This document shows positions 2,051 to 20,282 of a DNA stretch of 59,914 bases, piece after piece (position 1 is the stretch's first letter; each line of letters opens with the position of its first letter). Made by a program: the position numbers and the translations under genes. The stretch is from a virus. Lineage: Duplodnaviria > Caudoviricetes. The stretch covers positions 1 to 59,914 of the IMG/VR virus record IMGVR_UViG_3300034374_007566. One strand, given 5' to 3'. The notes beneath the pieces are model-generated. The model saw only the letters and a program-made list of their open reading frames with translations, was not told the origin of the DNA and ran no database searches.

Positions 2051-2422
2051 TTATCGGTCCCAGCGCTTGTCGGATGATTCGTAGAGCCGCTCCAGCGACT
2101 GGTGGGCCGGCGTGCCGGCCGAGCGGTATCGCTGGTTCATGATTTGGATTTGCTCAGGGGTTAAGGGCCTTCCTTGGGATTCCGCCGTCAACGCATCAAG
2201 CACTCCGCCGTCCACAAACTTGTCGTAGTTAATGTGGTGGTTGTCCCCTGCCTGGATGTCCGCAACCGCAATCAACGCCGCGTGCCGCGCCATGGACGGC
2301 GACCGCGCGCCCCGAACCAAACGCAGCCTGCGGATCAGATCCTCCGGTGACCGAGAAGTGCGCAGGCTGGATTCCACCGCCGCTATATCGCCCGGCGTGT
2401 ACTCGTCAGTGTAAGTTGGCAT
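2051..2422 (-). CDS. Hypothetical late protein (contains SPEDLIRRL)
   Basis: 123-aa ORF in the late operon. Confidence 0.65.
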   Translation of the reverse strand: MPTYTDEYTPGDIAAVESSLRTSRSPEDLIRRLRLVRGARSPSMARHAALIAVADIQAGDNHHINYDKFVDGGVLDALTAESQGRPLTPEQIQIMNQRYRSAGTPAHQSLERLYESSDKRWDR

Positions 2423-2431
2423 GAGGCTCTC

Positions 2432-2596
2432 TCAGGACGTAATGATGTAGAGCGTCTTGGCGTCCGGGGCCGAGAGAGCGTCGTAGTCGCTCTGGGAGAG
2501 GGTCACAATGTTGCGAATCTCCGTAGCCCCAGCGATGCCGGCGGCTACGCTTTTGACGGTGTCTTCAGAGCGAGGCGGGAATGATGGTACGGACAT
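2432..2596 (-). CDS. Small tail-fibre-associated protein (54 aa)
   Basis: Translated by hand: MSVPSFPPRSEDTVKSVAAGIAGATEIRNIVTLSQSDYDALSAPDAKTLYIITS; the SQxDYDAL..D..TLY motif is common in phage tail fibre proteins. Confidence 0.75.
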   Translation of the reverse strand: MSVPSFPPRSEDTVKSVAAGIAGATEIRNIVTLSQSDYDALSAPDAKTLYIITS

Positions 2597-2598
2597 GG

Positions 2599-2925
2599 CT
2601 AACCCTTCAGGCAGACGGTCATGGCGCAGGTGGTATTGCCTGTCACCACCGGAACGACAAACGGGAAGGCAAAGCAGGCATCAGGCACCGGGTGGGCACC
2701 CACTGTCACAGCAGTTGTCACAGCGGAGCCATCGGCGTAGATCGCCAGGGGCGTTTCGTTCTGGCCGTGGGCACCGTACCAGTCGATCTGGGTGGCACCG
2801 GCCGTGTTGCCGATCAGCACCCCAGCACCAGCCATATGAGTGAAGGCGAACCGTGGGCTCGTTGACGCAGCGGCGCTGGACGCAACGATACTGACGGTGT
2901 TCTGGAACCGGGTGATTTCGATCAT
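2599..2925 (-). CDS. Hypothetical virion protein
   Basis: 108-aa beta-rich ORF coupled to the upstream gene. Confidence 0.7.
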   Translation of the reverse strand: MIEITRFQNTVSIVASSAAASTSPRFAFTHMAGAGVLIGNTAGATQIDWYGAHGQNETPLAIYADGSAVTTAVTVGAHPVPDACFAFPFVVPVVTGNTTCAMTVCLKG

Positions 2926-3455
2926 TTGCCCTGCCTCTTCTTTGGATGTGCCTGCTTGTTGATGATCATCTCCCGCAGCTCGCCATCCTTCTTGCCAGGA
3001 TGCCGCTTGCGGTAGCGGGGCAGCTCCTCCTTAATGATTCGCTCATTCAGCACCGTCCGCTTGGGTGGCACGGGAGTCCCATGGTGGGTCACCGCACCTT
3101 CCACCGTCAGGTTGCGTTGCCTCGCTACCTTCTTAATGTCCGCCGTGGAGTCCACCCACGCCAAAGGATCACGGTGGGCCCGGCCATCGGCCAGGCCGCC
3201 CACATAGACCTTTCCGCTAGGGTCGATCCCGGCTGCACGGGCCTCCCGCAGGATGGTCTCTGCCTGCTTCTTGGGCATGTTGTCCAGCCACTGCTGGTTT
3301 AGTCGCCCCTCCATGAAGGCCCTGTCGGACCCTTTGGTCCCAGGAGGGCACTGAAGGGCGCACATCTCAGCCCATCGCTCACCGTAGGGCAGGGCCCTGC
3401 GGTAGGTTTCCTCAGCCTCCGGGCCCAGCCGGCTGATTGTCAGCGGGATTTCCAT
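2922..3455 (-). CDS. Hypothetical protein downstream of portal
   Basis: 177-aa ORF, basic C-terminus. Confidence 0.75.
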   Translation of the reverse strand: MEIPLTISRLGPEAEETYRRALPYGERWAEMCALQCPPGTKGSDRAFMEGRLNQQWLDNMPKKQAETILREARAAGIDPSGKVYVGGLADGRAHRDPLAWVDSTADIKKVARQRNLTVEGAVTHHGTPVPPKRTVLNERIIKEELPRYRKRHPGKKDGELREMIINKQAHPKKRQGK

Positions 3456-5427
3456 CTGGCGGCTCCTGCCCCGGCGGAGGTCCTGGCGGCGGCGGGGGCG
3501 GCGGCGGCACCAGGTACTTACTCACATCGATGTCCATGGCCCTCCCCCAATCCTCCAACAAGGCGTTGAACAGATTCGGCATGCCGGCCTGCATCATGCC
3601 CTGGGCCACAGGCATCATGACCTGCATGGCCTGGTTGACCTGTTCGACCTTGGTTCCCTTGTTGGGCTTCCTCGCACTGCCGGCCTCCACGCGGAAGTCA
3701 AACTCCCGCAGAAGCTGCTCTGGGTCCATGCCCTGGACGTGCATCTGCCAGGCCTGCGCAGCCAAGGGCCCAAGGAGAGGGGCAACGTCCTGGGGCTGGA
3801 CCAGCCACCTCGCCAGGAAGGCTTCCTTGCGGGCCACCTCTGACAGAGCATCCTCCAGGGTGTTGGCCATGTCGTCGGGCCTCACGGAAATCTGCTCAGC
3901 CTTCACGGCGGCCTCTGCGGCACTCCTGAACTGATTTCTGGACATGCCATAAATGAGTTCTGTCAGACCCACCCGGCGGTCGAACAGCTCCGTGACCGCG
4001 GCAACGATGTTCCACATGTCCATGGATACGCCGGGCAAGTTGAACACGCTGATGATGTCGTTGACGTTCCGGCCAATGGCTTCGGAGATTTCAACGATTT
4101 TGAAGCCTGACTCATCCGAATCCAGAATCTTGGCCTTCAGGTCGTTGTCCGCGGCCTTGGCTACGCCGATCATCGTCTGGGACGAGGTGGCGATCTTGGT
4201 CGCCATGAACGACATCGCCCAGTTGATGAACCGCAGCTCACCAATCCCCGGTTTGATCAGCGAGATGGGATAGGAGTAGCCCGGCTTTTTGAACCACTGG
4301 AGAATGGTACAAGGCCAGCCGTGGGGCTCTGCCCAGAATGGAATCGGCCACTGGCAGGAGGCGAACAGTGCAGGGGGGACGCCCGTCTCGTCCACGTCCT
4401 CTTGGAGTAGTTCCTGCGGGACGTTCAGCGGGAAGTCCACCCCCTCCGCAACGACGATGTAGCAGTATTCGCCAAGGGCATCGAACTTGCCCCTAATCTG
4501 CTGGTCGGCGTCCTTCAGCCGGTCACCAAAGCCAGTCTTGGAATAGATTTCCCAATAGGTGACCAGGTCGTTGGTCTTGCCCATCTTCTTGCGAGTCTCA
4601 TAGCCCCGCTCTTTGCGGGTGCTGCGAGAATCGTAGCTCTCGGCGTGGCCCTTCAGGTCTTCTGGGTTCAGGCCAAACTTGGCGGCCACAAAGTCCTTGG
4701 GATGACACCTCCGCCTGGCCAGCCACAGGATGTCGTCCTGACTGTCGGCGTCCGGGTCCCAGACGATGTTGTCGAAGGACTCATAGAACGAAGTAGCGAT
4801 CCGCTGGTCGGAGCCGGGAGGCTGGTACAACTCCGTGAACCAGCAACTGGCACCTTTGATCAGGGCCTCGTCCACCACCATCCGGGACTGGTCCTTCAGG
4901 TTCATCTCATTGGCTGAGTAGTTCAGGTACTCATCCATCAGCTTGGAGATGACGTTCCGCCGCTCCGAGAGGAACTGGGTCTGCTGGACCATCTGCTGGT
5001 ACATCTGCATCATGGGGTCCGGCATCATCACCGGCTGGCCATCGGGCCCCATGACTGGCTGGCCGTCCGGACCCATCTGCGGGACCGGCGGCTGCGGAAT
5101 GATCCCCAGCATCTGCGGGGCGATGATCGGATGCTGGCGGGGCGTGCAGACCCGGGACGGGTTGCGGTGGTGGATGACTGAGCCAAAGAGCCGAACGGCC
5201 TCCCAGACCCGGTTGACGGTCATCCGGAAGGCCGGCGGCGCTAGGCCCTTGACAAACCCCTTCTCGCCCCGGCTGTACTCAGATTTGAACATCCATGCGT
5301 TGTCGCCGTCATAGAAGTTCATCGCCTCTTCGGCGTCCTCCTGGAAGGGCTTTTTATGCTCCTTGGCCAGGTGAATCTTTTCTAGCCACCCCTTAACGAT
5401 GGGGCGGAGCGGGTTTGTCTCAGACAT
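3412..5427 (-). CDS. Portal protein
   Basis: 671 aa directly downstream of terminase; helical, WDPDA motif, Pro-rich C-terminus as in P22/SU10-type portals. Confidence 0.85.
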   Translation of the reverse strand: MSETNPLRPIVKGWLEKIHLAKEHKKPFQEDAEEAMNFYDGDNAWMFKSEYSRGEKGFVKGLAPPAFRMTVNRVWEAVRLFGSVIHHRNPSRVCTPRQHPIIAPQMLGIIPQPPVPQMGPDGQPVMGPDGQPVMMPDPMMQMYQQMVQQTQFLSERRNVISKLMDEYLNYSANEMNLKDQSRMVVDEALIKGASCWFTELYQPPGSDQRIATSFYESFDNIVWDPDADSQDDILWLARRRCHPKDFVAAKFGLNPEDLKGHAESYDSRSTRKERGYETRKKMGKTNDLVTYWEIYSKTGFGDRLKDADQQIRGKFDALGEYCYIVVAEGVDFPLNVPQELLQEDVDETGVPPALFASCQWPIPFWAEPHGWPCTILQWFKKPGYSYPISLIKPGIGELRFINWAMSFMATKIATSSQTMIGVAKAADNDLKAKILDSDESGFKIVEISEAIGRNVNDIISVFNLPGVSMDMWNIVAAVTELFDRRVGLTELIYGMSRNQFRSAAEAAVKAEQISVRPDDMANTLEDALSEVARKEAFLARWLVQPQDVAPLLGPLAAQAWQMHVQGMDPEQLLREFDFRVEAGSARKPNKGTKVEQVNQAMQVMMPVAQGMMQAGMPNLFNALLEDWGRAMDIDVSKYLVPPPPPPPPGPPPGQEPPDGNPADNQPAGPGG

Positions 5428-5441
5428 CGGAGTTTCCTGGG

Positions 5442-5747
5442 CTACTTCTTATTGCCCGGTGAACGCCGCTCCAGGGCCGAAAGCCGCTCGGAGAGCTGGG
5501 CAATCCGGGGGTCCCGCGGGCGGTGTTCCCAGGTGCCGAACTTCTTCCACTCCGGGTTGTCCGCCAGGCGGGGGTCATCGACGTGGTGGACAGACGGCTT
5601 TTCGACACCCCCGTACCCAGGGGACAGGGCCCACAGGTAGAGCGTGTCCCTGCCGACCTTGGCCACAAACGCCATCTGGGCCTCGGCACCCTCATGGGGG
5701 CGGAACAGGACGGTATCACCAAGACCGGCTTCAGGCATCGACCACAT
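5442..5747 (-). CDS. Hypothetical protein
   Basis: 101-aa ORF between terminase and portal. Confidence 0.75.
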   Translation of the reverse strand: MWSMPEAGLGDTVLFRPHEGAEAQMAFVAKVGRDTLYLWALSPGYGGVEKPSVHHVDDPRLADNPEWKKFGTWEHRPRDPRIAQLSERLSALERRSPGNKK

Positions 5748-5749
5748 AA

Positions 5750-7414: not shown

Positions 7415-7907
7415 GCGGTGCCGGCAACGCCTTAATGGTGATTGCCGTCTCCAGGAGTCGATCCCTCAGCTCCTCCTCCAGCTCTTCCTCACTCCACAGG
7501 GCAAGCGGTTTCTTGGCCCCGCCAAGAGCGGTGTTGTTGGTGACCAGCCGGACGATGGTCTCCAACTGCTTAGTTCGATGCGCCCCCCCTGGGGGTGAGT
7601 CGTAATACTGCTTCATGAAGAGGTTGGCAAAGCCCCGGACGCCCCCGGTGTACTCCAGGAGCGTCTCCAAAAGTTCCGCGGCATGCGGGATGTTCGCACC
7701 GCCAAGACGAGCCACCTGGCAGAACGTATCGACCGCATCGGCTTCGATCTTGTCTAGGCGTTCGTCCTTCTTCCGCTTGCGGCGTTTCTTCTCATACTCG
7801 CTGCGGCACTTCTTGCACTGACTGTGCCTGCGGCCATCAGAGGCCACATGGAACGCATGAAGGGGCAGGACCTTCTGGCACTTAACGCACTGCTTAGTAG
7901 ATGACAT
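7377..7907 (-). CDS. Probable terminase small subunit with N-terminal Zn-finger
   Basis: CVKC..CKKC, immediately upstream of terL, C-terminal SEEELEEEL helix. Confidence 0.6.
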   Translation of the reverse strand: MSSTKQCVKCQKVLPLHAFHVASDGRRHSQCKKCRSEYEKKRRKRKKDERLDKIEADAVDTFCQVARLGGANIPHAAELLETLLEYTGGVRGFANLFMKQYYDSPPGGAHRTKQLETIVRLVTNNTALGGAKKPLALWSEEELEEELRDRLLETAITIKALPAPHEEAPAPDTRAS

Positions 7908-9321
7908 CGTCAGCAAGGGCGAGGTCTAGCCTCGCCTTCCATACGTTCCCTTCGACCGTGTAGACCAGTTCGCTGTCCTGCACGGCCTGGCGGACTCCCT
8001 TAAACACATAGTAGTCATGGCCTGCCAGCAAGTGCTTGGCCTTGGGCCGCCACGCCTTGATGTCCGCCTCCACCGACTCCCGGTCATGCTCAGCGTCGAT
8101 GTAGACAATGTCGAACGCCCCGTCCGGGAACGTGCCGGCTACTTCCGGGGAGCGACCCACTGCGTGCGTGATGTCATAGCCCGCGGTGTTGCGGAGGAAG
8201 ACTTCCAGCGGCGTGCCGCGGGATTTGTCGTAAGCCTTGCACCCGTCGTCGTTCTTGGAGCCTTCCCAGGTATCAACGCAGGTGACCCTGGCCCCTGCCC
8301 TGGCCATGACGATGGCACTCCTGCCGGCCCAGGAGCCTACTTCACACACCGTGGGTGCGCGGCCATGCTCACGCAAGAAGTCCTGGATCAGGTTTCCCAA
8401 CGCCATGGCGTCCACGGCAGGCAAATCCATGCCCATGCCATCAAAGTCCTGGAGCTTGGCAAGCTTGTCCGCTACGGGGGAGCGGAAGTCCACCAGTTTG
8501 GTGTCATGTTCGTAGCCAGACTCCAAGGACGCCCGCATCTTGGCGCTCACGTCCGATGCAGCCATCACAACCGGCTTGCCAACGCACTTCGGCTTCCAAT
8601 GGCCAGCCCAGGCGTCCCAGTTGCAGTACACCGGGTTGTAGCCCAGCTTCTGAGTGCCAACCAAAGACAGGTCCCTAGTCATGGTCACGTCTTCTGTGGA
8701 GGCCTTCTCGGCACAGAAGCGGTCCTTCCACTCATAATAGAACCATGGCTTGTCTTCCGCAGTCCTGGGCTCCGTGAGTTCAAATGCTCTCATGTCGTAC
8801 ATGATAAGCCCGGTAGGCAGGGCGGCACATTCCTGGATGCCGGCCATCTTCACGGCCGTGTGCCGGTCGTACATCTCCAACTGGAAGTCCGGATTGGGGT
8901 TTTCGGACTGGAGGTTGTTCCACCGGAACACATAGACACACTCCACCGGAGGCGGGCCGCAGTACGGGGCACCAATCACGCACGGACCCTTGTGGTAGTG
9001 ATCAACCAAGAAGTCGAAGGAGGTAGGAAAGAACTCCCTGGCGTCTGGGTGGTCGGCGTGGATGTCCGGCTTCATGTCGCTGTCCACCATCACCAGGACA
9101 TCCAGGCCGTACTCCCTGGCCTGGATGACTGCCCGGTTGCGGGTCATGGTGATCGGCGTGTCCGCCAGATTCCAGACACGCACGCCGTCAACGCGGGGGT
9201 CCTTGACCGCCTTGTTGACCAGCGGAATCATCCACTCACGGATGTCCGGGACCTCAGACGAGATTCCGCCGTTGCCGCCATACGAAAAGGTGACAATGCC
9301 GACCTTGAACTTCTGCTGCAC
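7894..9321 (-). CDS. Glycosyltransferase (GT-A fold) / class I SAM methyltransferase fusion
   Basis: N-terminal TRN..DSDM..TGL..EDV motifs; C-terminal EVGSWAGRS, VDTW, DIVYIDAEH, AGHDY (Methyltransf_24-like). Confidence 0.85.
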   Translation of the reverse strand: MQQKFKVGIVTFSYGGNGGISSEVPDIREWMIPLVNKAVKDPRVDGVRVWNLADTPITMTRNRAVIQAREYGLDVLVMVDSDMKPDIHADHPDAREFFPTSFDFLVDHYHKGPCVIGAPYCGPPPVECVYVFRWNNLQSENPNPDFQLEMYDRHTAVKMAGIQECAALPTGLIMYDMRAFELTEPRTAEDKPWFYYEWKDRFCAEKASTEDVTMTRDLSLVGTQKLGYNPVYCNWDAWAGHWKPKCVGKPVVMAASDVSAKMRASLESGYEHDTKLVDFRSPVADKLAKLQDFDGMGMDLPAVDAMALGNLIQDFLREHGRAPTVCEVGSWAGRSAIVMARAGARVTCVDTWEGSKNDDGCKAYDKSRGTPLEVFLRNTAGYDITHAVGRSPEVAGTFPDGAFDIVYIDAEHDRESVEADIKAWRPKAKHLLAGHDYYVFKGVRQAVQDSELVYTVEGNVWKARLDLALADDVIY

Positions 9322-9386: not shown

Positions 9387-10604
9387 CTACCTGCCGCGGT
9401 AATACTGTATGTATCGCGGGTCGGTGGCCTTAAGCGTCTCCGGCGATATCTCGTTACCTTCCCTGTCCAAGGTGCGAACCCGCCCGTCGCGGTAGGCCTG
9501 GGCCCGGGCCGAAGGCTTATTCTGGCTCTTCCACCATTCGTATTGGCTGGCGGGGATTGGCGTGCTTCCATTAACGTACATAATGCCCGCCGCTGCGGCC
9601 TGCGCCGGGGTGCCACGGAAGTTGCGTATTGCCGCCCAGGCGGCCGGGTCGTATTTCGGAGCATTGCCCTCACTGGCGGACTTTCGCCCACCACCGCGGA
9701 GGCGGCGAGCCGTCCGCTGCCTCAGGGCACGGCTCCCGGCAAGTTGCTGTCGCCGGATTTCCTGGGTCCGGCGTGCCTCCGCTTCCCTTTCTTCCTGCGT
9801 CGGGGGAGTGCTGTTCCTAACCACGGTTCGCCAGTGGTCCTCAGTAAGGGGACGGGTGCCACGGTACATTTCCCGGCTCTTTGCCAGGGTGCCGGCCGCC
9901 GGCCCGGAGAACGCCCCGCCAGAGTTGTGCTGCTGGAGATACTCTTCGTAACTGCCCGGCGCAGGGCCTGTCGGTTCGCTTGGCGGCTGGCTGGTCTCTG
10001 GCGGCCGGAAGCCCGGCTGGGCGTTGGGAAGCGGACCCAGCGAACCAGGCTGCGACTCGCCTTGCAGCCGGCGGATTAGGTCCGGGCTATTGTAAACATC
10101 GTTCCCCAGGGGGAGCCCCAGCCCACCTGGCGGCTGGGCCATTGGGTTGAAGTTGAACTGCGGTGCCCCAAGCACGCCGGGCTGCTGCCAGCTCTGCTGC
10201 TGCATCTGGCCAAGTTGACTGTTGACGTTGCTGATCAGCGAGTTACGCCAGTCGAAGTTAGGCTGGGATGTCGCCGCACCAAACGGGTTGCCCCAGGACT
10301 GCTGGAAGGGCGGGGGCCGCTGGTCAGGCGGTGCGTAGGCGAGATTGCCGTTCTGCCCGTATGGCGTGGAGTTCGCATACGGGCTCTGCTGGGGCTGGGC
10401 CATCCCAGGGCTATAAGCGGAATACGCACTAGGCTGCCGGTCGGACCCGCCCGTGTAGTAACCCTGCCACTGATTGGCGTTTGGCTTGCTGCCGTACAGC
10501 TCCTGGTTGGTCTTGCCAAGGGCATCCCAGGCCTGCTTGTATTCCTGCTGCGTCTTCCCGGTCTGGCTGCCGGGTTGCGTCATCCATCGCATGGGGCTGC
10601 TCAT
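9387..10604 (-). CDS. Low-complexity Q/P/G-rich late protein, probably internal virion
   Basis: 405-aa ORF; contains SPDLIRRL. Confidence 0.7.
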   Translation of the reverse strand: MSSPMRWMTQPGSQTGKTQQEYKQAWDALGKTNQELYGSKPNANQWQGYYTGGSDRQPSAYSAYSPGMAQPQQSPYANSTPYGQNGNLAYAPPDQRPPPFQQSWGNPFGAATSQPNFDWRNSLISNVNSQLGQMQQQSWQQPGVLGAPQFNFNPMAQPPGGLGLPLGNDVYNSPDLIRRLQGESQPGSLGPLPNAQPGFRPPETSQPPSEPTGPAPGSYEEYLQQHNSGGAFSGPAAGTLAKSREMYRGTRPLTEDHWRTVVRNSTPPTQEEREAEARRTQEIRRQQLAGSRALRQRTARRLRGGGRKSASEGNAPKYDPAAWAAIRNFRGTPAQAAAAGIMYVNGSTPIPASQYEWWKSQNKPSARAQAYRDGRVRTLDREGNEISPETLKATDPRYIQYYRGR

Positions 10605-10750
10605 TGCCGGTCCTCCTGCGGCTCAGAGATCATCGGCGGGGCGTACACCAGCATCCGGAGCTTCTCCATGTCCTCCATTGGCACTCCACGCCTCGCCTCA
10701 GCGATCAGCATCCGAAGGAACTCCAGGTTTTGGATTGCTGGACTGTCCAT
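10601..10750 (-). CDS. Small hypothetical protein (49 aa)
   Basis: MDSPAIQNLEFLRMLIAEARRGVPMEDMEKLRMLVYAPPMISEPQEDRQ; ATGA coupling to 9387..10604. Confidence 0.6.
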   Translation of the reverse strand: MDSPAIQNLEFLRMLIAEARRGVPMEDMEKLRMLVYAPPMISEPQEDRQ

Positions 10751-11388: not shown

Positions 11389-12495
11389 TCAGGCAAGTGC
11401 GGTCCACTTAATAAAGTTACGCGGGCTCTTAAACTTAAGGTTGCCGAGCGTTGAAACACAGTAGCGATAACTTTGGGTAACTTCGTCGTAGAAAGGCCCC
11501 TCAGAGTTAAACATCTGTCCCTCCATATTCAGGAGTTCGATGTTACCGATGGCCAGGCCGTAGGCCGTGTTGGCCGGGACCGCGTACTCCGTTCCCAGTT
11601 CCACGCCGTCAAGCTGCACGGTGTTGAAGCCGTAGCTCTTCAGGCTGTTCTCGCCGGAGACGATGACCCGCTCCTTGGAGTCCTGGGCGTTCAGGAAGTC
11701 GATGTACAACTTCCGATCCATGACCACCAAATCGACGGCGTCTTCCTTGGTGTCGTTCCGCTTGGCGAAGTGGAGGCCCTCACGGAGAGCCTTCACGCAG
11801 TTAGCCGACCAGGTGGTGTCACCAAAGTAGGACGAGGTGTAGTTAACAATCAGCGGCGAGTAGAAATCGAACTCGCTGTCGGCCTTGCCAGCCGGCCACA
11901 CGCCTTCCAACTGCGAACCGCCGTAGGCACCAAGCTGGGTGCTAAGGCCGGCGTAGGTGTCGGACGGGTAGCCAAACGGGTCGGCGGCGTTGGCCGTGCG
12001 GGCCTCGCCGGTCGCCACGTTGATCGTCTGCGTTCCGGCCAGGAAACTCTCCAGGCCGTGGTAACGCAGCTCGTTGCCCGCGGCCGATCCATCGATGTAA
12101 ACCTCCTGCGCGAGGTACTGTTCGATGGAGGTGAGCAGCCGGCTGCTCATCTTACCCGCCACGTTGACCAGGGCGCTGGTGCCCCGGTTCTCCAACAGCT
12201 CCTTGCGATAAATCGCATCGGTGGCCTGATAGCCGCGGTACTCCAGCTCCGCCTTCTTCCACAGGTTCTGCCGGCTGAAGGACCGGGGAGTCTCGCCGTT
12301 ATTCCCCTGCGGCTGATGCAGGCGGTAAGACACCTCCCAGTCGAAGCCACGGCCTGCCATGTTCATCCGGATGTTGCCCCGGCTTTCGATGGCAGCGAAG
12401 ACCATGTACTTCCGCAGGGAAGCGATCTCTTCCTCACGCAGGTGGTTAACCAGCGTAGTTGCGATACTTCGGGCAAAATCAGTGGTGCTGGCCAT
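11389..12495 (-). CDS. Major capsid protein
   Basis: 368 aa after scaffold, strong RBS; YIDG...GLESF pattern typical of HK97-fold podovirus capsids. Confidence 0.85.
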   Translation of the reverse strand: MASTTDFARSIATTLVNHLREEEIASLRKYMVFAAIESRGNIRMNMAGRGFDWEVSYRLHQPQGNNGETPRSFSRQNLWKKAELEYRGYQATDAIYRKELLENRGTSALVNVAGKMSSRLLTSIEQYLAQEVYIDGSAAGNELRYHGLESFLAGTQTINVATGEARTANAADPFGYPSDTYAGLSTQLGAYGGSQLEGVWPAGKADSEFDFYSPLIVNYTSSYFGDTTWSANCVKALREGLHFAKRNDTKEDAVDLVVMDRKLYIDFLNAQDSKERVIVSGENSLKSYGFNTVQLDGVELGTEYAVPANTAYGLAIGNIELLNMEGQMFNSEGPFYDEVTQSYRYCVSTLGNLKFKSPRNFIKWTALA

Positions 12496-12503: not shown

Positions 12504-13478
12504 CTAGATCAAGCCGTCCTTAACGAGTTGGGACTTAAGGCGTTCTTCCAAGGTCTGCTTGGGCTTTGGTGCCCTGGGCTCCGTTGCCCCACCGCTCCTG
12601 TTGGGCGTGCGGGTGGCACGCTCACGCAGGAACTGCATGTTCGATTGTTCGACCGGCGACTCTTGCGGCGGCGGGGGCGGCGGTGCCTGCTGCATCTGCT
12701 GGTATCGCAGGTTCAGCAGGTCGCGCTCCAACATGCTCGTCGCATACTGCCAACGGCCTTCTGGTGTGTTGATTCCGGACTGGGCGGCCTGGGCGATGTA
12801 CTGCTGAATCGCCTGGCCCTCCGGGGTGATCTGTCCTTGCTGGTCGTAGAGCCAGTCAGCGTTCTGCTGCTCTAGGCTCTGGACGTAGTTTTGTGCGGTG
12901 TACTGGCCGAGTTGCTGCTGGACAAGCTCCTGGGCCTTCTGCATCGCCACCTGTTCGACAAATGGCTTCAGGGTGCTTTCGGGGTCCGTGACCAGCTTCT
13001 TGGCGAAGTTGGTGGTGTAGGCCTGGTAGTTCTGAAGGGCGGCCTTGGCCTCCAGCGGTGCGCTTGGGTCTACAACCTCTCGGCCCGTCTCTGGGTCCCG
13101 GATGATGTACTGCTTCCAGGTGTCTTCAACCTTGGGAGGGTTCCACCACCTAGGCTGCTCTTCGGTCTTGGGCTGCTGCTGGGACTGGAGCCACTCCTGG
13201 TACTTCTGCTTGTTACTGGCGTACTCCATCGCCACCGGCATGACATCTTGGTACTGGCGAAGCTGCTGCTGAGCTTCCCGGTAACCCTGCATGGACGCAT
13301 AGAGCGTCTGGGCGATGGCCACATCGTCTGCACCACGGAACTCAGGAAGTTCCTTGAAAGCGTCGTAAACGCTTCCTTGGGGTGCTGGCTGATTGTCAAA
13401 GGACTGCTGAGGAGGAGCTTCAGGAACTGGGGCTCCCGCTACTTCGGGAGCTTCTACCTGCGGTGCTTCTTCGCTCAT
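12504..13478 (-). CDS. Scaffolding protein
   Basis: Q/E-rich helical protein directly upstream of the capsid gene. Confidence 0.75.
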   Translation of the reverse strand: MSEEAPQVEAPEVAGAPVPEAPPQQSFDNQPAPQGSVYDAFKELPEFRGADDVAIAQTLYASMQGYREAQQQLRQYQDVMPVAMEYASNKQKYQEWLQSQQQPKTEEQPRWWNPPKVEDTWKQYIIRDPETGREVVDPSAPLEAKAALQNYQAYTTNFAKKLVTDPESTLKPFVEQVAMQKAQELVQQQLGQYTAQNYVQSLEQQNADWLYDQQGQITPEGQAIQQYIAQAAQSGINTPEGRWQYATSMLERDLLNLRYQQMQQAPPPPPPQESPVEQSNMQFLRERATRTPNRSGGATEPRAPKPKQTLEERLKSQLVKDGLI

Positions 13479-13550
13479 GGTTTTCCTTTCCGGTAGCTAG
13501 GGGGTGTATGTGTGTAGATTGCCCCTTAGCCCAGATTCGTAAACCGATTT

Positions 13551-14801
13551 TTAGCGCACGGCCGGCATGAGCTGTTCGATGAGCGGGTCAACAGCCAATC
13601 GATTCATCGTCTTGTCCGGGTACGCCATGACTGGAAGTGCGGCTCCTTCCATCATCGCCGCACCGACACCCACGTCCGTACCAAGAGCAGCGGCCGTCGC
13701 TTCCGCAGTCCGTGACGCACCCGACCTGCCGAAAGTCCCCGTCCATCCACGGTGCCTGGCTATATTCATCTGCCGAAGGGCCCGCGTGAACGGGTTTGTT
13801 CCGCCGTGCAAGGCAGACTTCGTTACAGCGGAGCGAACTCCACCAAAGGCCGGGATGTTGTCCGTGAGGGAGCCCGCCACTATCGCCGTTGGGTAACGCA
13901 GCCATTCAACCCCGTCGAACACATCCGGGGCCTCATTAACATAGGTGAACATGTCGCCGGACATGTTTTGCTTGCTTGGCATGTACGGCATCACGGACCC
14001 GTCTTCGTACCGCCTTAGAGCCTCCTGGTAGGCGCGGTCGGCCAGCGAGGTCGAACTGCCGTCCGCGGACGGGTCCACCATGTCCATGGCACCCGTCAGA
14101 CCGCCCAGGAGCAACGTATCCAGGGCGTTGCCAGTCTGCGTTGCGATCTCTTGGCGGTTGTCATACGCATAGTTGGGCAGGCCAAGATCATTAAGCACAC
14201 GCCCGCCAACCAACTGGCCGTAACCGCCAAACGTGCCGCCAATAGAACTGAGCCAGTTAAACGCCTTCCCGGCCGGGGACCAGGGCGGCAGCATCTCCTG
14301 CCGGTACGGCTTGATCTCCGTGTCCGCGTTCCGGATCATCGTCATCGGCACCGTAGTGCCATCCGGCAGCGTGATGGCGTCCTGGAACGCCTGCTTGGTG
14401 GCGGCGTCAGAGTCTTTGATCTCTCCGGCCACCGCCTGCAAACCCCGGAGCAGCCCCGACCGTTGATTTGCTAACTCCCAGTCTTTCTGGGTGCGGACTG
14501 TCTTGGGGGCGTAGAGGTACGACATTGACAGCGGACGGGCGTCCGGAAGCAGGACGCCACGCTCGTCAAACATCGGCGGAGCGACTCGCTTGCCCTGGCC
14601 GGCAAGCCTGGCCTCACGGGGGAAGGGGTGCGGGGGCACAGACTGCATGCCAGCCTGCTGGATGCGGGCGATCATCTCGTCACGGAGACGAAGACGCTTC
14701 TCCGTTTCCTGCTTGGCGTAGCTACGGGCATAAGCCAGACGCTCCGCCTCCTCGGCCTCCTTGGCACGGATGCGTGCCGCTTCTTCGGCCAGGCTTGCCA
14801 C
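13551..14801 (-). CDS. Hypothetical virion/internal protein
   Basis: 416-aa ORF, GTG start. Confidence 0.65.
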   Translation of the reverse strand: MASLAEEAARIRAKEAEEAERLAYARSYAKQETEKRLRLRDEMIARIQQAGMQSVPPHPFPREARLAGQGKRVAPPMFDERGVLLPDARPLSMSYLYAPKTVRTQKDWELANQRSGLLRGLQAVAGEIKDSDAATKQAFQDAITLPDGTTVPMTMIRNADTEIKPYRQEMLPPWSPAGKAFNWLSSIGGTFGGYGQLVGGRVLNDLGLPNYAYDNRQEIATQTGNALDTLLLGGLTGAMDMVDPSADGSSTSLADRAYQEALRRYEDGSVMPYMPSKQNMSGDMFTYVNEAPDVFDGVEWLRYPTAIVAGSLTDNIPAFGGVRSAVTKSALHGGTNPFTRALRQMNIARHRGWTGTFGRSGASRTAEATAAALGTDVGVGAAMMEGAALPVMAYPDKTMNRLAVDPLIEQLMPAVR

Positions 14802-14814
14802 GGCTCACCCCTGG

Positions 14815-15147
14815 TTACTTGCCGTATGAGGGGGCGTAGGTCATTTCCTGGCTGCTATTGCCCGTGGCCAGTTGCTGCGGAGCCAAGCGGATCGTTCCGG
14901 GCCCCATGCCGGAAGCGAGCCGCTGCTGCTCCAACTGATCCATCAACTGGCGGATACGCATCTCCGCCGGCTGGGACTGGAAGGCAGCAAGCTCCAGGCC
15001 CTTTAGCGTGGCCGCATCCTTTGCGAACGTGCGGGGATCATTGGAATAAGGATCGATTGGGTTGTTGAAGTTCAGGCGACCGGCAGCGTCATAGCCAACG
15101 CCGCGGCCCGCAATGAACCGATTGTAGTTGTCTACTGCACTCATCAC
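14815..15147 (-). CDS. Hypothetical late protein (PAEMRIRQL)
   Basis: 110-aa ORF coupled to 15144..15476. Confidence 0.65.
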   Translation of the reverse strand: MMSAVDNYNRFIAGRGVGYDAAGRLNFNNPIDPYSNDPRTFAKDAATLKGLELAAFQSQPAEMRIRQLMDQLEQQRLASGMGPGTIRLAPQQLATGNSSQEMTYAPSYGK

Positions 15148-15476
15148 ATTCCCCGGGCTTGGCGGATTCGTTCAATCATGGCAGCGATCTGCCCTTCAGT
15201 GAGGGCTGGTGTTTCCTGTCGCTGAGCGTGGGGCATGCCGAAGGCCCGCTGGTGGTATTGCAGGGCCCGCTCTTGGCGAAGCCGCCGCATGTCCTCTTCG
15301 GGCGAGGGCGGAGCGTTTGCAATCGGGCCACCCTGGGCCATGGCGGGATTCCACCGCTGCATGTCCGCAGGCGTGGCCATGGTGGAAGGGCCAGCCTGGA
15401 ACTGCGGGGGCATCATGTGGCCGCCAGGAGGAAGCTGGAAGTTCGTCATCCCAGGGGCTTGCATCGTTGCGTTCAT
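15144..15476 (-). CDS. Hypothetical Q/P/M-rich late protein (SPEEDMRRL)
   Basis: 110-aa ORF with AGGAG RBS. Confidence 0.7.
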   Translation of the reverse strand: MNATMQAPGMTNFQLPPGGHMMPPQFQAGPSTMATPADMQRWNPAMAQGGPIANAPPSPEEDMRRLRQERALQYHQRAFGMPHAQRQETPALTEGQIAAMIERIRQARGM

Positions 15477-15484
15477 GGCGTCTC

Positions 15485-15886
15485 CTAGTTCTTATTGCCC
15501 TTCTTCCGGGCACGGCGGATCGCAAGTTTGATAAGTAGCCTGCCGACCACGGAAACGTAAGGGAACTTTCGCTTCTTAGCCTCTTCAGCTAGCCAACGGT
15601 CGATGTCTTCGATGTGCTGCTCGCACCACGCGCAGCCGTTCTTGTCCATCGCCGCCGCCCGCTTATTGCAGGCGCAGTTTGGTTTGGCCATGATGCCGAA
15701 AGACTTCAGGAGCGCCTTCAGCTCCGTTCCTGGCCCGCCGACAACAGGCGGCGGCTTCGGGCGGCAGTGCGCGCGGAGGCCTGGCCTGCGGGTCGCCACG
15801 CGGCGACCACAGTGACGGCACACCGCCACGCCTCGGCCGTAGACGAAATCACACTCCTTGGACATCGATCTGAGCAGATGTTCCAT
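15485..15886 (-). CDS. Cys-rich hypothetical protein
   Basis: CRHC, GPGTELKALL..CAC..RA..MD..GCAWC. Confidence 0.75.
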   Translation of the reverse strand: MEHLLRSMSKECDFVYGRGVAVCRHCGRRVATRRPGLRAHCRPKPPPVVGGPGTELKALLKSFGIMAKPNCACNKRAAAMDKNGCAWCEQHIEDIDRWLAEEAKKRKFPYVSVVGRLLIKLAIRRARKKGNKN

Positions 15887-16538
15887 CGCCGTCTCCGCCG
15901 TATGAAGTGACAGTCCCGTTGTAGTCGCTGCACGGATACACCGCCCAGCCGCAGGCCGTGTTGGTGGCCGACTCTGCTGACGGCGTGAGAGTCATGAAGG
16001 CCGAAAGCGCACCAAACTTGTAAACACTTATTGACGCAGATCGGACAGACGCCACGCCCACAAAAACAACAACTGAGTAGTCGCCGGAGTCGAAGTTCGC
16101 CGTACCCGAGCCCGTGCATCCCAGGTCCACCAGATACCCGCCCGTGAAGTTAATCAAAGACTCTACGTCGCTGTCGTATGTGGCATCCCCGGTAGACATC
16201 GTATAGCCGCTCCCGGTGACCCGGGCACTAGACGTGCCTCCGCCAGAGCAGTCTGGCACGGGGTCCGACACTGCGTCCGCCACGGGGTCGCACTCCGTTC
16301 CGCAGGCGGTGGAGTTGTATCCCCTCACGCACTGATAGACGACGCACCCATCGTCATTTGTTACGGGTTCACAGCAACCAGACGTGCAATCGAAGTCCGC
16401 ACAGTCGGTTCCTGAGCCCTTGTACACACCGCCCAGCGTGGCACAGTCCGCTGCTGTCTCCTGGGTGCAAACGTAGGAGCCGGCCGACAGATGGCAGCAC
16501 GCCCCCTTGCAACAGCCGCACGGGTCCGTGTAGGACAT
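15849..16538 (-). CDS. Cys-rich GACC-motif protein, probably virion-exposed
   Basis: PCGCCKGACC...C...C...GG.YKG.GT.C repeat unit. Confidence 0.75.
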   Translation of the reverse strand: MSYTDPCGCCKGACCHLSAGSYVCTQETAADCATLGGVYKGSGTDCADFDCTSGCCEPVTNDDGCVVYQCVRGYNSTACGTECDPVADAVSDPVPDCSGGGTSSARVTGSGYTMSTGDATYDSDVESLINFTGGYLVDLGCTGSGTANFDSGDYSVVVFVGVASVRSASISVYKFGALSAFMTLTPSAESATNTACGWAVYPCSDYNGTVTSYGGDGDGTSAQIDVQGV

Positions 16539-16539
16539 G

Positions 16540-16836
16540 TCACCACGCCAGGAAAGCGAGAAGAACCCACTTCACGCGGTCAGCCCAGTACGCCGCGGAC
16601 ATCTTGCCCTTGGCGATGTTCTTAGCGTGGCGGGCCTTGAAGGACTCTCGCCGCTTGCGGTAGGACTCCGACTCGCCGTCCTTCCTGGGGGAACCAGAGA
16701 CTCCCTGCTGCCCGAAGCGGATGATCTTCTCCTGGCCGCCGGCACAGGCCTTAACAACGTGGGACTTGGTGTCATGGCCAGGTGTCCGCTTGGGAGAGTT
16801 GCAGGCCAGGCGGCGGATGTTGTCTTCACTTCCCAC
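16540..16836 (-). CDS. Small basic phage protein (IRFGQQG / SFKARH / SAAYWA family)
   Basis: Motifs KIIRFGQQG, RRESFKARH, SAAYWAD; likely GTG start at 16836 giving MGSEDNIRRL. Confidence 0.75.
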   Translation of the reverse strand: MGSEDNIRRLACNSPKRTPGHDTKSHVVKACAGGQEKIIRFGQQGVSGSPRKDGESESYRKRRESFKARHAKNIAKGKMSAAYWADRVKWVLLAFLAW

Positions 16837-16972
16837 TGAGCTTCTTCCATTGCTTGGAGTCTGGGTAGTCCTTGTCGCCAGGCTTGGCGGGCTTCTCGCC
16901 TCGCTCACGCTTGGCCCGGATGTTGTGCCACAGGCCCCGCTTCAGTTGGCGGATGTTGTTCTCGCTGCTCAT
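16826..16972 (-). CDS. Small basic protein (GLWHNIRAKR family)
   Basis: MSSENNIRQLKRGLWHNIRAKRERGEKPAKPG... Confidence 0.7.
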   Translation of the reverse strand: MSSENNIRQLKRGLWHNIRAKRERGEKPAKPGDKDYPDSKQWKKLSGK

Positions 16973-17045
16973 ACGGGGTAGCCGTCCATCTCTATTGGTC
17001 CCCAGGTGTCCCCGTCCCACCAAATCCACATAAGGTCAAAGGGCA

Positions 17046-17342
17046 TCAGTCCAAGCCCACGGGGCCACTCTTCTTAGGACGGCGTTCTTTCTTCATGTAC
17101 TGATTGGGCTTGGAGTTACGATACGGCATCAGGCGTGGTCCGCCGTAATAGCCATTCCGCTGGTAGTCTTCCAGTTGCTGGAACTCCTCCGCCATGGCGG
17201 CCTGGCCCATCTCTTTGGCGAACGCCTGATATTCCGGCGACTGCGCTTGGCTGTACGCCTGCGACCGCTGCTGGGAGTCCAGTTGGCCTCGCAGCATGGC
17301 GTTCTCTTCCAACAACATTCGGATGCGTTCTTCAGGGCTCAT
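17046..17342 (-). CDS. Hypothetical late protein (MSPEERIRML)
   Basis: 98 aa, AAGGAG RBS. Confidence 0.75.
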   Translation of the reverse strand: MSPEERIRMLLEENAMLRGQLDSQQRSQAYSQAQSPEYQAFAKEMGQAAMAEEFQQLEDYQRNGYYGGPRLMPYRNSKPNQYMKKERRPKKSGPVGLD

Positions 17343-19176: not shown

Positions 19177-19181
19177 ACAGG

Positions 19182-19673
19182 CTATTGCCCCACGGGAATC
19201 CAGTCCCAGCCAGGTGTCGCCAAGAGGGCGTCCGTCGCCCTGACCGGAGCGTCCGGAAGCAGTAGCCCCTCCGGCACGCGGACGACTTGCTTGCCCATGT
19301 TTGCACGGAAGAACTGCACCGGCTCACCAGAGCCGCCCCGCACCCAGTGCTTCACATTTACCCCGCCACCGCGTGATCTGCCAGACGCAGGAGGAAGAAA
19401 GAACCCTATGCTCCGGGCGTCCGCTAGCTCCGGTTCCGTTAGCGTGCGGTAAATCCAGCCTTGCTCCGTGAGGTGGTCCAAGGGGCCTGGAGCGCCGTAC
19501 TGAATAGCTGGCCGGTCATGGACAAGATTCCTCATCGGGGGGCCACCGGGCATGCCGGCGCGAGCAGCTTCTGCTGCCAGGCGGCGTACATTAGCCGGAG
19601 TTGATATCGCCACCTGCGGTCGGCTGGCTGGCCTGCCCATCAACCGCCGCAGGAGTTCTTCACGTCGCCCCAT
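19182..19673 (-). CDS. Putative ADP-ribosyltransferase-fold protein
   Basis: WIYRTLTEPELADARSIGF resembles ART strand 1 plus helix (YR....E......G). Confidence 0.45.
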   Translation of the reverse strand: MGRREELLRRLMGRPASRPQVAISTPANVRRLAAEAARAGMPGGPPMRNLVHDRPAIQYGAPGPLDHLTEQGWIYRTLTEPELADARSIGFFLPPASGRSRGGGVNVKHWVRGGSGEPVQFFRANMGKQVVRVPEGLLLPDAPVRATDALLATPGWDWIPVGQ

Positions 19674-19680
19674 GGAGATG

Positions 19681-19687
19681 AGTGTCC
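19681..19687 (-). promoter_or_regulatory. GGRCAMT putative late-promoter element (representative copy)
   Basis: Same motif at 5451, 13518, 14857, 15494, 17363, 19184, 20290, 51863, 56493, each just upstream of a minus-strand late gene. Confidence 0.6.
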
Positions 19688-19703
19688 GGGCTAAACGACG
19701 CTG

Positions 19704-20282
19704 TTAATCAACTACCGGATATCCCAGGGACCGAAAGATGTCCTCAGCACCCAGAGAGGCGGCCTCTCTTTCAGGAATGCTGTACAGAATCGTCCTCGGC
19801 CTCTTGCCTGGGTCCGGGCCATAGAGCTGTAGACGGCGTTCAATGTCACCCGCCAAGTTTGCCCGTTTCGTCATCCAGTTGACAAAGTATGAAGGGTGAT
19901 CCCGGAGAGGAACGCCAGGGAAGAGTTGGTCTCCGCGAGCGCCGTCCATGGGAATCATCGGTCGATACAAGTGATAGGCGGTGTCGTTCGGATGAAGGTC
20001 AGGCTCCAACTGACGCCACACTCGCCCCACTTCCGGGTCTCTAATCAATCGCTGAGGGCCATACGTTCGATACTGGTTGGGGATGCCTGCATCCATCAGG
20101 CGATTCCACTCTTCCAGGTACGGGTCAATGGCAGGAAAGCGCGGCCCAGGAATGGCCACGGAAGACGGCCTCGGCGGCACCAGGACCTTTGGTGGCGGCG
20201 GCGGGGGAGCAGGAATACGCGGAGGAGCGGCCCTCGCAGCCGCTTCACCGACTCGCTTAATAAGCCACTCTCGTCGCCCCAT
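19704..20282 (-). CDS. Hypothetical protein, possible ART fold; true start ATG 20282
   Basis: MGRREWLIKRV start mirrors MGRREELLRRL of its neighbour; Pro-rich linker; HLYR..VNWMT..TILYSIP. Confidence 0.55.
   Translation of the reverse strand: MGRREWLIKRVGEAAARAAPPRIPAPPPPPPKVLVPPRPSSVAIPGPRFPAIDPYLEEWNRLMDAGIPNQYRTYGPQRLIRDPEVGRVWRQLEPDLHPNDTAYHLYRPMIPMDGARGDQLFPGVPLRDHPSYFVNWMTKRANLAGDIERRLQLYGPDPGKRPRTILYSIPEREAASLGAEDIFRSLGYPVVD

What the first reader, a model, noticed from the sequence alone, without database searches (positions are those of the whole stretch)
2051..20282. Shared 9-residue motif on many unrelated late proteins: candidate capsid-loading signal
Seen: SPEDLIRRL (2051..2422), NSPDLIRRL (9387..10604), PAEMRIRQL (14815..15147), SPEEDMRRL (15144..15476), GSEDNIRRL (16540..16836), SSENNIRQL (16826..16972), SPEERIRML (17046..17342), RREELLRRL (19182..19673), and weaker EDMEKLRML (10601..10750). 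Four copies are at the extreme N-terminus, two of them prefixed to widespread small phage families. The proteins are otherwise unrelated. Known: T4 internal proteins share a short capsid-targeting sequence. Inference: this is a portable helix that directs diverse cargo into the prohead; it loosely resembles the scaffold C-terminus TLEERLKSQL.
Basis: partly seen in the sequence, partly recalled or inferred. Interest (0 to 1): 0.78.

Follow-up and report, generated by a model that had tools for sequence, protein, structure and literature searches.

The report
Shared peptide tag on phage proteins
Several unrelated small proteins of an uncultured temperate phage and its relatives carry the same eight-residue peptide, most likely a docking tag that loads them into the virus head, though no experiment has tested this.

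Summary
The motif is real but narrower than listed. Six of the nine instances are strong (2051, 9387, 14815, 16540, 16826, 17046). One is marginal (15144) and two are weak (19182, 10601).

The core is [S/T/P]-E-[D/N/E]-x-I-R-[R/K/Q/M]-L. A scoring matrix built only from relatives finds 6 hits of at least 14 bits in the window against 0.08 expected. All lie in the head block; none lie in early/middle or tail genes.

In 39 related contigs the tag recurs on the late strand (68 hits against 4 on the other strand). It usually sits as the exact N-terminus M-x-x-E-D-N-I-R-R-L of three or four consecutive small genes. It also occurs near C-termini.

Codons vary between copies, so the peptide is what is selected.

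Three widespread small basic phage families carry the tag only in this clade: phrog_7595, DUF6321 and a GLW/GLY family. Homologs in cultured phages lack it.

One near-complete relative has neither the tags nor these families, so the system is accessory.

No head protease was found. The tag does not resemble the scaffold C-terminus.

Head loading is the best reading (about 0.45) but is untested. The one complex prediction gave no verdict. Earlier notes of this scan describe similar tags on other phage DNA.

The parts
17313..17342 (-). N-terminal tag MSPEERIRML of the 98-aa protein 17046..17342
   Evidence: 21.6 bits. ATG follows AAGGAG. Orthologs in 6 loci keep M-[NT]-P-E-[DE]-R-I-R-[MQ]-L.
16943..16972 (-). 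N-terminal tag MSSENNIRQL of the 48-aa GLW-family protein 16826..16972
   Evidence: 26.6 bits. Matches phrog_11180 and phrog_16028 from residue 27-29 of the long ORF onward. Ten clade homologs all carry a tag variant; CRP-810 gp49 starts directly before the GLY core. An alternative ATG at 17029 is not excluded.
16807..16836 (-). N-terminal tag M(GTG)GSEDNIRRL of the 98-aa phrog_7595 protein 16540..16836
   Evidence: 28.4 bits. phrog_7595 E 9.7e-36, matching only after the tag. The tag residues E, D, I, R and L are invariant in 14 clade homologs. In the AlphaFold2 model residues 3-8 form a helix ahead of the beta core.
2324..2350 (-). Internal tag SPEDLIRRL (residues 25-33) of the 123-aa protein 2051..2422
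   Evidence: 20.0 bits with a matrix trained on other proteins. No homolog in the 39 loci.
14944..14970 (-). Internal tag PAEMRIRQL (residues 60-68) of the 110-aa protein 14815..15147
   Evidence: 15.5 bits. No homolog in the 39 loci.
10065..10091 (-). Internal tag NSPDLIRRL (residues 172-180) in the Q/P/G-rich 405-aa protein 9387..10604
   Evidence: 14.6 bits. Flanked by low-complexity sequence.
15279..15305 (-). Marginal copy SPEEDMRRL in the 110-aa protein 15144..15476
   Evidence: 9.8 bits. The region from the tag onward aligns with 17046..17342 over 56 aa.
19641..19673 (-). Weak N-terminal copy MGRREELLRRL of the 163-aa protein 19182..19673
   Evidence: 5.1 bits. Fits only the reduced core. 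No homolog in the loci.
10601..10750 (-). 49-aa protein conserved in 29 loci, with two reduced-core copies (NLEFLRML, EDMEKLRML)
   Evidence: Reduced-core hits. Both score -1.4 bits with the tag matrix. R13, L15, L31, R32 and M33 are invariant.
12504..13478 (-). Scaffold-like protein (324 aa), a candidate receptor
   Evidence: Sits directly upstream of the capsid gene. Found in 37 of 39 loci, with near-invariant N-terminal and C-terminal blocks. The name rests on position and composition; no family hit.
11389..12495 (-). Major capsid protein (368 aa, HK97 fold), a candidate receptor
   Evidence: phrog_9953 E 2.2e-11. AlphaFold2 model pLDDT 87.5. Foldseek probability 1.00 to many phage capsids.
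3412..5427 (-). Portal protein (671 aa), a candidate receptor
   Evidence: phrog_1216 E 3.5e-5 and a weak SU10_portal match.

Best explanation
The peptide [S/T/P]-E-[D/N/E]-x-I-R-[R/K/Q/M]-L is a portable short linear motif. It forms a one- to two-turn amphipathic helix set off from the rest of the protein by Pro/Gly-rich linkers.

Inferred mechanism: it docks a changing set of accessory, mostly basic proteins onto one common site of the assembling head (scaffold core, inner capsid face or portal). They would then be built into the procapsid and travel with the DNA. Because it works at N-termini, at C-termini and internally, and no head protease is detectable, it would act without being cut off. 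In that respect it is closer in logic to an encapsulin cargo-loading peptide than to the T4 propeptide.

Shown: the motif, its selection as a peptide, its portability, and its restriction to late-strand genes.

Inferred: the docking, the receptor and the presence of carriers in virions.
For: 1. Enrichment and restriction. There are 6 window hits of at least 14 bits against 0.08 expected, and 3 independent ones against 0.059 expected. None occur in early/middle or tail proteins.

2. Replication in relatives.
- 68 hits on the late strand against 4 on the other strand in 39 loci.
- Late-strand hits in five complete relatives and the window number 7, 4, 3, 3, 4 and 6. The other strand has 0, 0, 0, 0, 0 and 2; the two in the window lie on the strand opposite the late genes, one of them opposite the 17046 tag itself.
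- A strict DNA pattern gives 10 hits in 5 genomes, all on the late strand, and 0 for the reversed control.

3. Selection acts on the peptide. Codons differ between copies (GAA/GAG, four Leu codons, CGC/CGG). The tag residues are invariant in orthologs while the following linker varies.

4. Portability.
- The same tag opens four consecutive unrelated genes in L002.
- It sits 13-26 residues from the C-terminus of other proteins and is internal in others.
- It is attached to phrog_7595, DUF6321 (PF19846, E 9.5e-19, match starting at residue 21) and the GLW family only in this clade.

5. Specificity control. In 158 other phage loci with phrog_7595 genes (1.62 Mb) there are 12 and 9 hits on the two strands and no clusters.

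6. Context fits head cargo.
- Most carriers lie 1-7 kb upstream of scaffold and capsid.
- 6 of 9 carriers have pI of at least 8.9, against a proteome median of 5.8.
- One tagged relative protein has a partial ART-PolyVal match (E 8e-6, 27.1 bits, below the 31.2 cut-off). This recalls T4 Alt, a packaged ADP-ribosyltransferase.
- Precedent: the first 10 residues of T4 IPIII suffice for head targeting, and the internal proteins are otherwise diverse (PMC9026906 and PMC3012670, passages read).
Against: - There are no virion data for any carrier.
- In two relatives (G005, G007) the tagged genes are not near the head genes. They lie about 20 kb upstream, beside membrane-protein genes, and in G005 next to an S8 subtilase.
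- DUF6321 and GLY genes of cultured phages sit inside structural modules without any tag. If those proteins are virion proteins, the tag is not needed for packaging in general.
- G010 is 99% complete and its capsid protein is 84% identical, yet it lacks the tags and all three small families. Whatever the tag does is dispensable.
- The tag does not resemble the scaffold C-terminus, so the 'scaffold mimic' route has no support.
- A crude unbiased 8-mer test was not significant.
- The carriers with the weaker scores may simply have an ordinary helix start (S/T-P-E-E).
Confidence: 0.45

Rival explanations
1. The tag is a docking motif for a common partner that is not the head. Candidates are a host protein (chaperone, protease adaptor, polymerase or nucleoid factor) or a phage hub protein. 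On this view the tagged small basic proteins act together in the cell rather than inside the virion.
For: - Everything that shows a selected portable motif fits this reading equally well.
- In G005 and G007 the tagged genes lie far from the head genes, next to membrane-protein genes.
- Untagged homologs in cultured phages keep their place in structural modules.
- A relative's protein preceding the scaffold has a weak J-domain-like HPD stretch right after a tag-like segment (DnaJ, E 0.1).
Against: - All hits are on the late strand, and in most genomes they are packed directly upstream of scaffold and capsid.
- No candidate partner was identified.
- The J-domain match is far below threshold.
Confidence: 0.25
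2. The shared peptide is inherited sequence rather than an address. On this view a mosaic gene-start or helix-start module was spread by recombination among neighbouring small genes. It is kept because it stabilises each protein's own fold or oligomer, with no common partner.
For: - S/T-P-E-E is a common helix start (general knowledge).
- In 17046 the tag runs straight into a longer helical, coiled-coil-like stretch.
- 15144 and 17046 align over 56 aa including the tag.
- Four tagged genes are adjacent.
Against: - On GLW, phrog_7595 and DUF6321 the tag is followed at once by Pro/Gly breakers, and it is the only added piece relative to homologs elsewhere.
- It also occurs at C-termini and internally in unrelated proteins.
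- I-R-x-L is invariant while the flanks vary.
- Codons differ between copies, which argues against recent copying.
Confidence: 0.13
3. The peptide is a processing signal recognised by a protease, either phage-encoded or of the host. It would mark where the carriers are trimmed, like the cleavage part of the T4 propeptide.
For: - T4 propeptides combine targeting and cleavage (PMC9026906, passages).
- One relative (G005) encodes an S8 subtilase (PF00082, E 6.7e-49) immediately upstream of its tagged trio.
Against: - No prohead-protease or other protease family appeared among the 58 window proteins scanned with PHROGs, 28 of which were also scanned with Pfam.
- The window has no S8 gene.
- Capsid and scaffold carry no tag.
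- Copies 13-26 residues from C-termini and internal copies would cut carriers into pieces.
Confidence: 0.06
4. The motif is chance recurrence of a common E/R/L-rich helix pattern in a GC-rich proteome.
For: - The first regex was fitted after the fact.
- A crude unbiased 8-mer test does not beat shuffles.
- Two of the nine listed copies are weak.
Against: - A matrix trained on other genomes still finds 3 independent hits against 0.059 expected, and 0 of 3000 shuffles reach that.
- Strand asymmetry is 68 to 4 in relatives.
- Background level was measured in 1.62 Mb of control phage DNA.
- Tag residues are invariant in orthologs.
Confidence: 0.02

Closest known systems
Capsid targeting sequence (CTS) of phage T4 internal proteins IPI-III and Alt
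   Same: A peptide of about 10 residues is shared by otherwise diverse, mostly basic, fast-changing accessory proteins of one phage lineage. It is typically at the exact N-terminus. An ADP-ribosyltransferase-like protein may be among the carriers (PMC9026906 and PMC3012670, passages read).
   Different: No gp21-type or other head protease was detected. The tag also works from C-terminal and internal positions. The sequence differs. The phage is a temperate, podovirus-like phage of about 60 kb, not a T4-like myovirus. Packaging is not shown here.
Encapsulin cargo-loading peptides
   Same: A short terminal peptide on unrelated cargo. The shell protein has the HK97 fold. Cargo genes lie mostly next to the shell gene. 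No proteolysis is required (recalled knowledge; PMC8229669 seen in a search listing only).
   Different: This is a genuine DNA-packaging phage with portal, terminase and a separate scaffold. The consensus of the peptide is different (recalled). There are many carriers per genome. Binding to the shell is untested.
Scaffold-dependent incorporation of ejection proteins in phage P22 (gp7, gp16, gp20)
   Same: Internal proteins co-assemble with the scaffold during procapsid assembly in a short-tailed phage without a head protease (PMC12005531, passages read).
   Different: No shared short address peptide is described for the P22 ejection proteins in the passages read. Here the carriers are small and numerous and share one motif.
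Polyvalent proteins of phages and conjugative elements (ART-PolyVal, LPD domains)
   Same: Effector-like domains are thought to be delivered with the DNA. A tagged relative protein has a partial ART-PolyVal match. One atlas cluster near the 416-aa protein carries LPD22 in 21% of its members, which is a lead only.
   Different: There the domains are fused into one giant protein. Here they would be separate proteins sharing a tag. Both matches are below curated thresholds.

Membership tests
T4-type capsid targeting sequence | Short peptide shared at the N-terminus of otherwise unrelated phage proteins | tested here: met
   Three strong N-terminal copies in the window. In 37 of 50 regex matches across loci and window, a start codon lies exactly three codons before the E. 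21 distinct N-terminal versions on at least 5 families.
T4-type capsid targeting sequence | Removed by the prohead protease at a consensus site also present in capsid or scaffold proteins | tested here: inconclusive
   No protease family among the 58 window proteins scanned with PHROGs, 28 of them also with Pfam. No tag in capsid or scaffold. A divergent protease cannot be excluded, and cleavage itself is not testable here.
T4-type capsid targeting sequence | Carriers are present inside the head and the peptide suffices to package a foreign protein | not testable with these tools
   The phage is uncultured and there are no proteomics.
Encapsulin-type cargo-loading peptide | Shell protein has the HK97 fold | tested here: met
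   AlphaFold2 model pLDDT 87.5. Foldseek probability 1.00 to HK97, SU10, A-1(L) and other capsids.
Encapsulin-type cargo-loading peptide | Peptide binds the inner face of the shell protein | not testable with these tools
   The single complex job gave no verdict (see Tried and rejected).
Encapsulin-type cargo-loading peptide | Cargo genes adjacent to the shell gene | tested here: inconclusive
   Most hits lie 1.1-7 kb upstream of the capsid gene. In G005 and G007 they lie about 20 kb away, and in G003 and G004 one lies at the end of the tail block.
   The best tag-matrix score in the scaffold is -2.5 bits and is not at the C-terminus. hhalign of the 49-aa two-motif protein against the scaffold gives 13 columns at probability 4%.
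phrog_7595 small basic phage protein | Profile match over the family core | tested here: met
   16540..16836: E 9.7e-36, residues 33-114 of the long ORF. At least 8000 homolog clusters.
DUF6321 (PF19846) | Profile match above the curated cut-off | tested here: met
   Relative's protein L002:6127-6393: 68.3 bits against a cut-off of 28.5, match from residue 21. No DUF6321 gene was found in the window itself.

The most novel reading that the evidence does not exclude
This would be a protease-independent, position-independent cargo-loading peptide in a genuine tailed phage. An eight-residue helix works from either end or from inside a protein. A temperate podophage clade has grafted it onto three pan-phage small basic protein families and onto enzyme-like effectors (an ADP-ribosyltransferase-like protein among them). 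The result would be a swappable payload carried in the head: an encapsulin-style solution to the problem that T4 solves with a cleavable propeptide and other phages solve with giant polyvalent fusion proteins.
Probability: 0.3. Interest if true: 0.8.

Novelty: new variant of a known kind. Interest (0 to 1): 0.62.

Why it matters
How short-tailed phages without a head protease select the proteins they carry and inject is poorly understood. The one well-defined address peptide is T4's.

A minimal, uncleaved tag that works at any position would give a rule for reading 'virion cargo' directly from metagenomic phage genomes. It would point to fast-changing candidate anti-defence or take-over proteins. 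It would also offer a very small handle for loading foreign proteins into phage capsids.

The finding also assigns a first testable property to three very widespread small phage protein families of unknown function: phrog_7595 (at least 8000 clusters), DUF6321 (561 GenBank phage records) and the GLW/GLY family.

Tried and rejected
- **Complex prediction.** Capsid protein (alignment of 122 sequences), scaffold (22) and tagged phrog_7595 cargo (14) were submitted with the cargo as partner. The score was 0.00 against a mark of 0.32, and the tool's verdict was 'no answer'. Controls were not run. This is no evidence either way.
- **Scaffold mimicry.** Rejected on the tag-matrix scores and hhalign.
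- **A DNA-level element (promoter, recombination site).** Rejected because codons vary between copies.
- **Do other clades use their own shared prefix?** The other N-terminal prefixes of phrog_7595 homologs were searched for in neighbours within about 6 kb, in 21 loci, with strict regexes. None was found outside the phrog_7595 gene itself. A broader scored version of this test timed out. Five loci with full-length matches to a minimal-tag homolog (and one further locus) showed no shared prefix either.
- **Unbiased all-against-all 8-mer test.** At the high threshold proline runs dominate. After masking, the tag ranks first but does not exceed shuffles.
- **Fold of the phrog_7595 carrier.** No Foldseek match at E of 0.001 or better, and the best VIA-align Z is 3.1. 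No family can be named.
- **Pfam at lenient thresholds on 12 head-block proteins.** Nothing usable.
- **ESM Atlas on the 416-aa protein.** Only unnamed clusters and one LPD22 lead.
- **Kinase-like loop.** One was seen by eye in L002:3787-4503, but there is no Pfam or PHROG hit, so it is not claimed.
- **Closest cultured phage.** tblastn of the capsid protein found no match in 50,697 GenBank phage records.
- **Literature.** A search for 'DUF6321' found 0 papers.
Full report
**What the window is.** The 59,914-base window is a complete IMG/VR virus record with about 61% G+C.
- One long minus-strand block runs from about 21,700 down to 406 and continues at the other end of the record (59,642 to 43,523).
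- It encodes a portal (phrog_1216), a large terminase (phrog_2), a major capsid protein (phrog_9953), tail-tip and fibre-like proteins and many unknowns.
- The AlphaFold2 model of the capsid protein (pLDDT 87.5) has the HK97 fold, with Foldseek probability 1.00 to many phage capsids.
- The rest of the record holds recombination and replication genes: Erf, an exonuclease VIII-like protein, SSB, RusA and a helicase. It also holds two recombinases, so the phage is probably temperate.
- No cultured relative was found by capsid tblastn in 50,697 GenBank phage records.
- No protease family was seen among the 58 window proteins scanned with PHROGs, 28 of which were also scanned with Pfam.

- The fitted regex E..[ILM]R[RQM]L gives 7 hits in 75 called proteins against 0.20 expected; 0 of 500 shuffles reach 7.
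- That regex was written after seeing the hits. I therefore built an 8-column matrix from 12 tags of relatives only.
- The matrix finds 6 window hits of at least 14 bits against 0.08 expected.
- After removing the three proteins orthologous to the training families, three independent hits remain. They are 2051 at 20.0 bits, 14815 at 15.5 and 9387 at 14.6, against 0.059 expected. None of 3000 shuffles reaches three.
- 15144 is marginal at 9.8 bits. 19182 (5.1 bits) and the 10601 copy (-1.4 bits) are weak.
- A reduced core, [DE].[ILM]R[RQMK][LMI], occurs 8 times in the 28 head-block proteins (0.27 expected). It does not occur in the 34 early/middle proteins or the 13 tail-block proteins.
- A crude all-against-all 8-mer comparison ranks the tag windows first but does not exceed shuffles. 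I report that as a neutral result.

**Relatives.** A capsid-based search gave 39 related viral contigs with 58-90% capsid identity.
- Core genes are shared: capsid in 39 loci, scaffold in 37, terminase in 37 and portal in 32.
- The carriers are patchy. 2051, 14815, 15144 and 19182 have no homolog in any locus.
- The matrix nevertheless finds 68 hits of at least 12 bits on the late strand of these loci and 4 on the other strand. Nearly all lie 1.1-7 kb upstream of the capsid gene.
- In 37 of 50 regex matches a start codon lies exactly three codons before the Glu.
- There are 21 distinct genuine N-terminal versions.
- In L002 four consecutive genes open with the tag. Their openings are M-N-P-E-D-R-I-R-Q-L, M-A-T-E-D-N-I-R-R-L, M-S-S-E-N-N-I-R-K-L and (GTG)A-S-E-D-N-I-R-R-L. 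Their bodies are unrelated: a helical protein, an unknown 74-aa protein, the GLW family and DUF6321.
- Variants such as M-D-E-N-G-D-K-I-R-K-L show that the constant part is D/N-x-I-R-[R/K]-L.
- The motif also sits 13-26 residues from the C-terminus of larger proteins. One is a 283-aa protein with a partial ART-PolyVal match (E 8e-6, below the cut-off). Another is the protein that precedes the scaffold.

**Peptide or DNA?** Copies use different codons for the same residues: GAA and GAG, four Leu codons, CGC and CGG. The conserved object is therefore the peptide. In an alignment of 14 tagged phrog_7595 proteins, E4, D5, I7, R8 and L10 are invariant while the next six residues vary. The AlphaFold2 model of that protein shows a short helix (residues 3-8, lower confidence) ahead of a beta core.

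**Is the tag an add-on?** Yes.
- The phrog_7595 profile matches only after the tag.
- Among the 112 best homologs with the family anchor, 18 start with a tag-like peptide (9 by regex and 9 more by eye). The other 94 start with other prefixes or directly with the core.
- Roseobacter phage CRP-810 has the same gene order (phrog_7595, GLY, small genes, scaffold-like protein, capsid) but no tags.
- Pelagibacter phage HTVC115P and Prochlorococcus phage P-SCSP1d carry untagged DUF6321 and GLY genes inside their structural modules.
- In 158 other phage loci with phrog_7595 genes (1.62 Mb) the matrix finds only background: 12 and 9 hits on the two strands, with no clusters.
- The other prefixes of the family are not shared with neighbours.

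**Whole genomes.** Six-frame scans of five complete relatives and the window give 7, 4, 3, 3, 4 and 6 hits on the late strand.
- The other strand has none, except two in the window that lie on the strand opposite the late genes, one of them opposite the 17046 tag itself.
- A strict DNA pattern gives 10 hits, all on the late strand, and 0 for the reversed control.
- Placement is not always beside the head genes. In G005 (terminal repeats, so the ends are known) and in G007 the tagged genes lie about 20 kb upstream. They sit beside membrane-protein genes, and in G005 also beside an S8 subtilase.
- In G003 and G004 one tagged gene follows the last, roughly 1055-aa late gene.
- G010 is 99% complete and has a capsid protein 84% identical to the window's. 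It has no tag and none of the three small families. G006 (75% complete) also has none. The system is therefore accessory.

**What it most likely does.** A selected, portable peptide of 7-8 residues that is set off by Pro/Gly linkers and works at either end is the signature of a docking motif for one common partner. Several observations point to the assembling head as that partner:
- the late-strand restriction;
- the usual position directly upstream of scaffold and capsid;
- the basic character of the carriers (6 of 9 with pI of at least 8.9, against a proteome median of 5.8);
- the T4 precedent;
- scaffold-dependent co-assembly of ejection proteins in P22.

I put this reading at about 0.45. 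The receptor is unknown.

The rival readings are a non-head partner (0.25), an inherited helix-start module with no common partner (0.13), a processing signal (0.06) and chance (0.02).

**Comparison with known systems.** The behaviour is closest to the T4 capsid targeting sequence. It fails or leaves open the features that define that family beyond 'shared N-terminal peptide': no protease, no cleavage site shared with capsid or scaffold, and use at C-termini and internal sites. In logic it is nearer to encapsulin cargo-loading peptides (an uncleaved terminal peptide and an HK97-fold shell), but in a real DNA-packaging phage. I file it as a new variant of a known kind. Earlier AI notes of this scan describe comparable shared tags in other viral genomes. 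Those notes are unchecked and were not used as evidence.

**What could not be seen.** There are no virion proteomes. No supplements were consulted. Of the papers cited, PMC3012670, PMC9026906 and PMC12005531 were read as passages only; all others were seen only in search listings.

Noticed in passing
window 16540..16836: The window's phrog_7595 protein ends with an extra hydrophobic octapeptide (VLLAFLAW). Twelve of the 13 other aligned clade homologs end at ...KW and lack it.
   Followed up: no
L123 (G005:C1:52000-57962), minus strand 4568..5452: A 294-aa S8 subtilase (PF00082, E 6.7e-49) lies immediately upstream of the tagged gene trio in a relative with terminal repeats. The window has no such gene.
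   Followed up: partly
L002 4503..5354 and 3787..4503: Two larger proteins of a relative have C-terminal tags. One has a partial ART-PolyVal match (E 8e-6, below cut-off). The other has a kinase-like H-x-D-x-K-x-x-N loop seen by eye only, with no family hit.
   Followed up: partly
L002 7823..8914: The protein preceding the scaffold ends with a weak J-domain-like stretch containing H-P-D (DnaJ, E 0.1) right after a tag-like A-G-E-R-I-R-Q-L. The window's counterpart (13551..14801) lacks it.
   Followed up: no
window 16826..16972 and L002 6127..6393: The GLW/GLY motif and DUF6321 match different parts of the same PHROG profiles (phrog_11180 and phrog_28131). In some phages the two small proteins are therefore fused. 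In P-SCSP1d they are adjacent, between the capsid gene and tail tubular protein A.
   Followed up: partly
window 7894..9321: A 475-aa protein with a Methyltransf_24 domain (PF13578, E 6.7e-14) in its C-terminal half sits inside the head module. It is conserved in 34 of 39 loci.
   Followed up: no
window 15849..16538 and 15485..15886: Two cysteine-rich proteins lie in the tag-rich block (229 aa, acidic, many CC/CxxC; 133 aa, basic). The 133-aa one is conserved in 21 loci. Neither carries the tag.
   Followed up: no
window 3412..5427, 12504..13478, 19704..20465, 34457..34981: Runs of 6-8 prolines recur in the portal C-terminus, the scaffold and two other proteins. They dominated the unmasked 8-mer comparison.
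   Followed up: no
window 406..2025 and 58017..59642: Two fibre-like proteins of about 540 aa lie at opposite ends of the record and hit the same PHROGs (phrog_10356, phrog_11772). The late block therefore wraps around the record ends.
   Followed up: no
window 17305 (+ strand): The strand opposite the MSPEERIRML tag itself reads ...S-S-N-N-I-R-M-R... and scores 14.5 bits. This is an accident of the near-palindromic ATCCGAATG.
   Followed up: yes
window 42713..43540 (+) and 31565..32335 (+): Both a tyrosine integrase-like protein (phrog_1, E 2.6e-18) and a serine recombinase/invertase-like protein (phrog_95, E 6.2e-46) are present.
   Followed up: no
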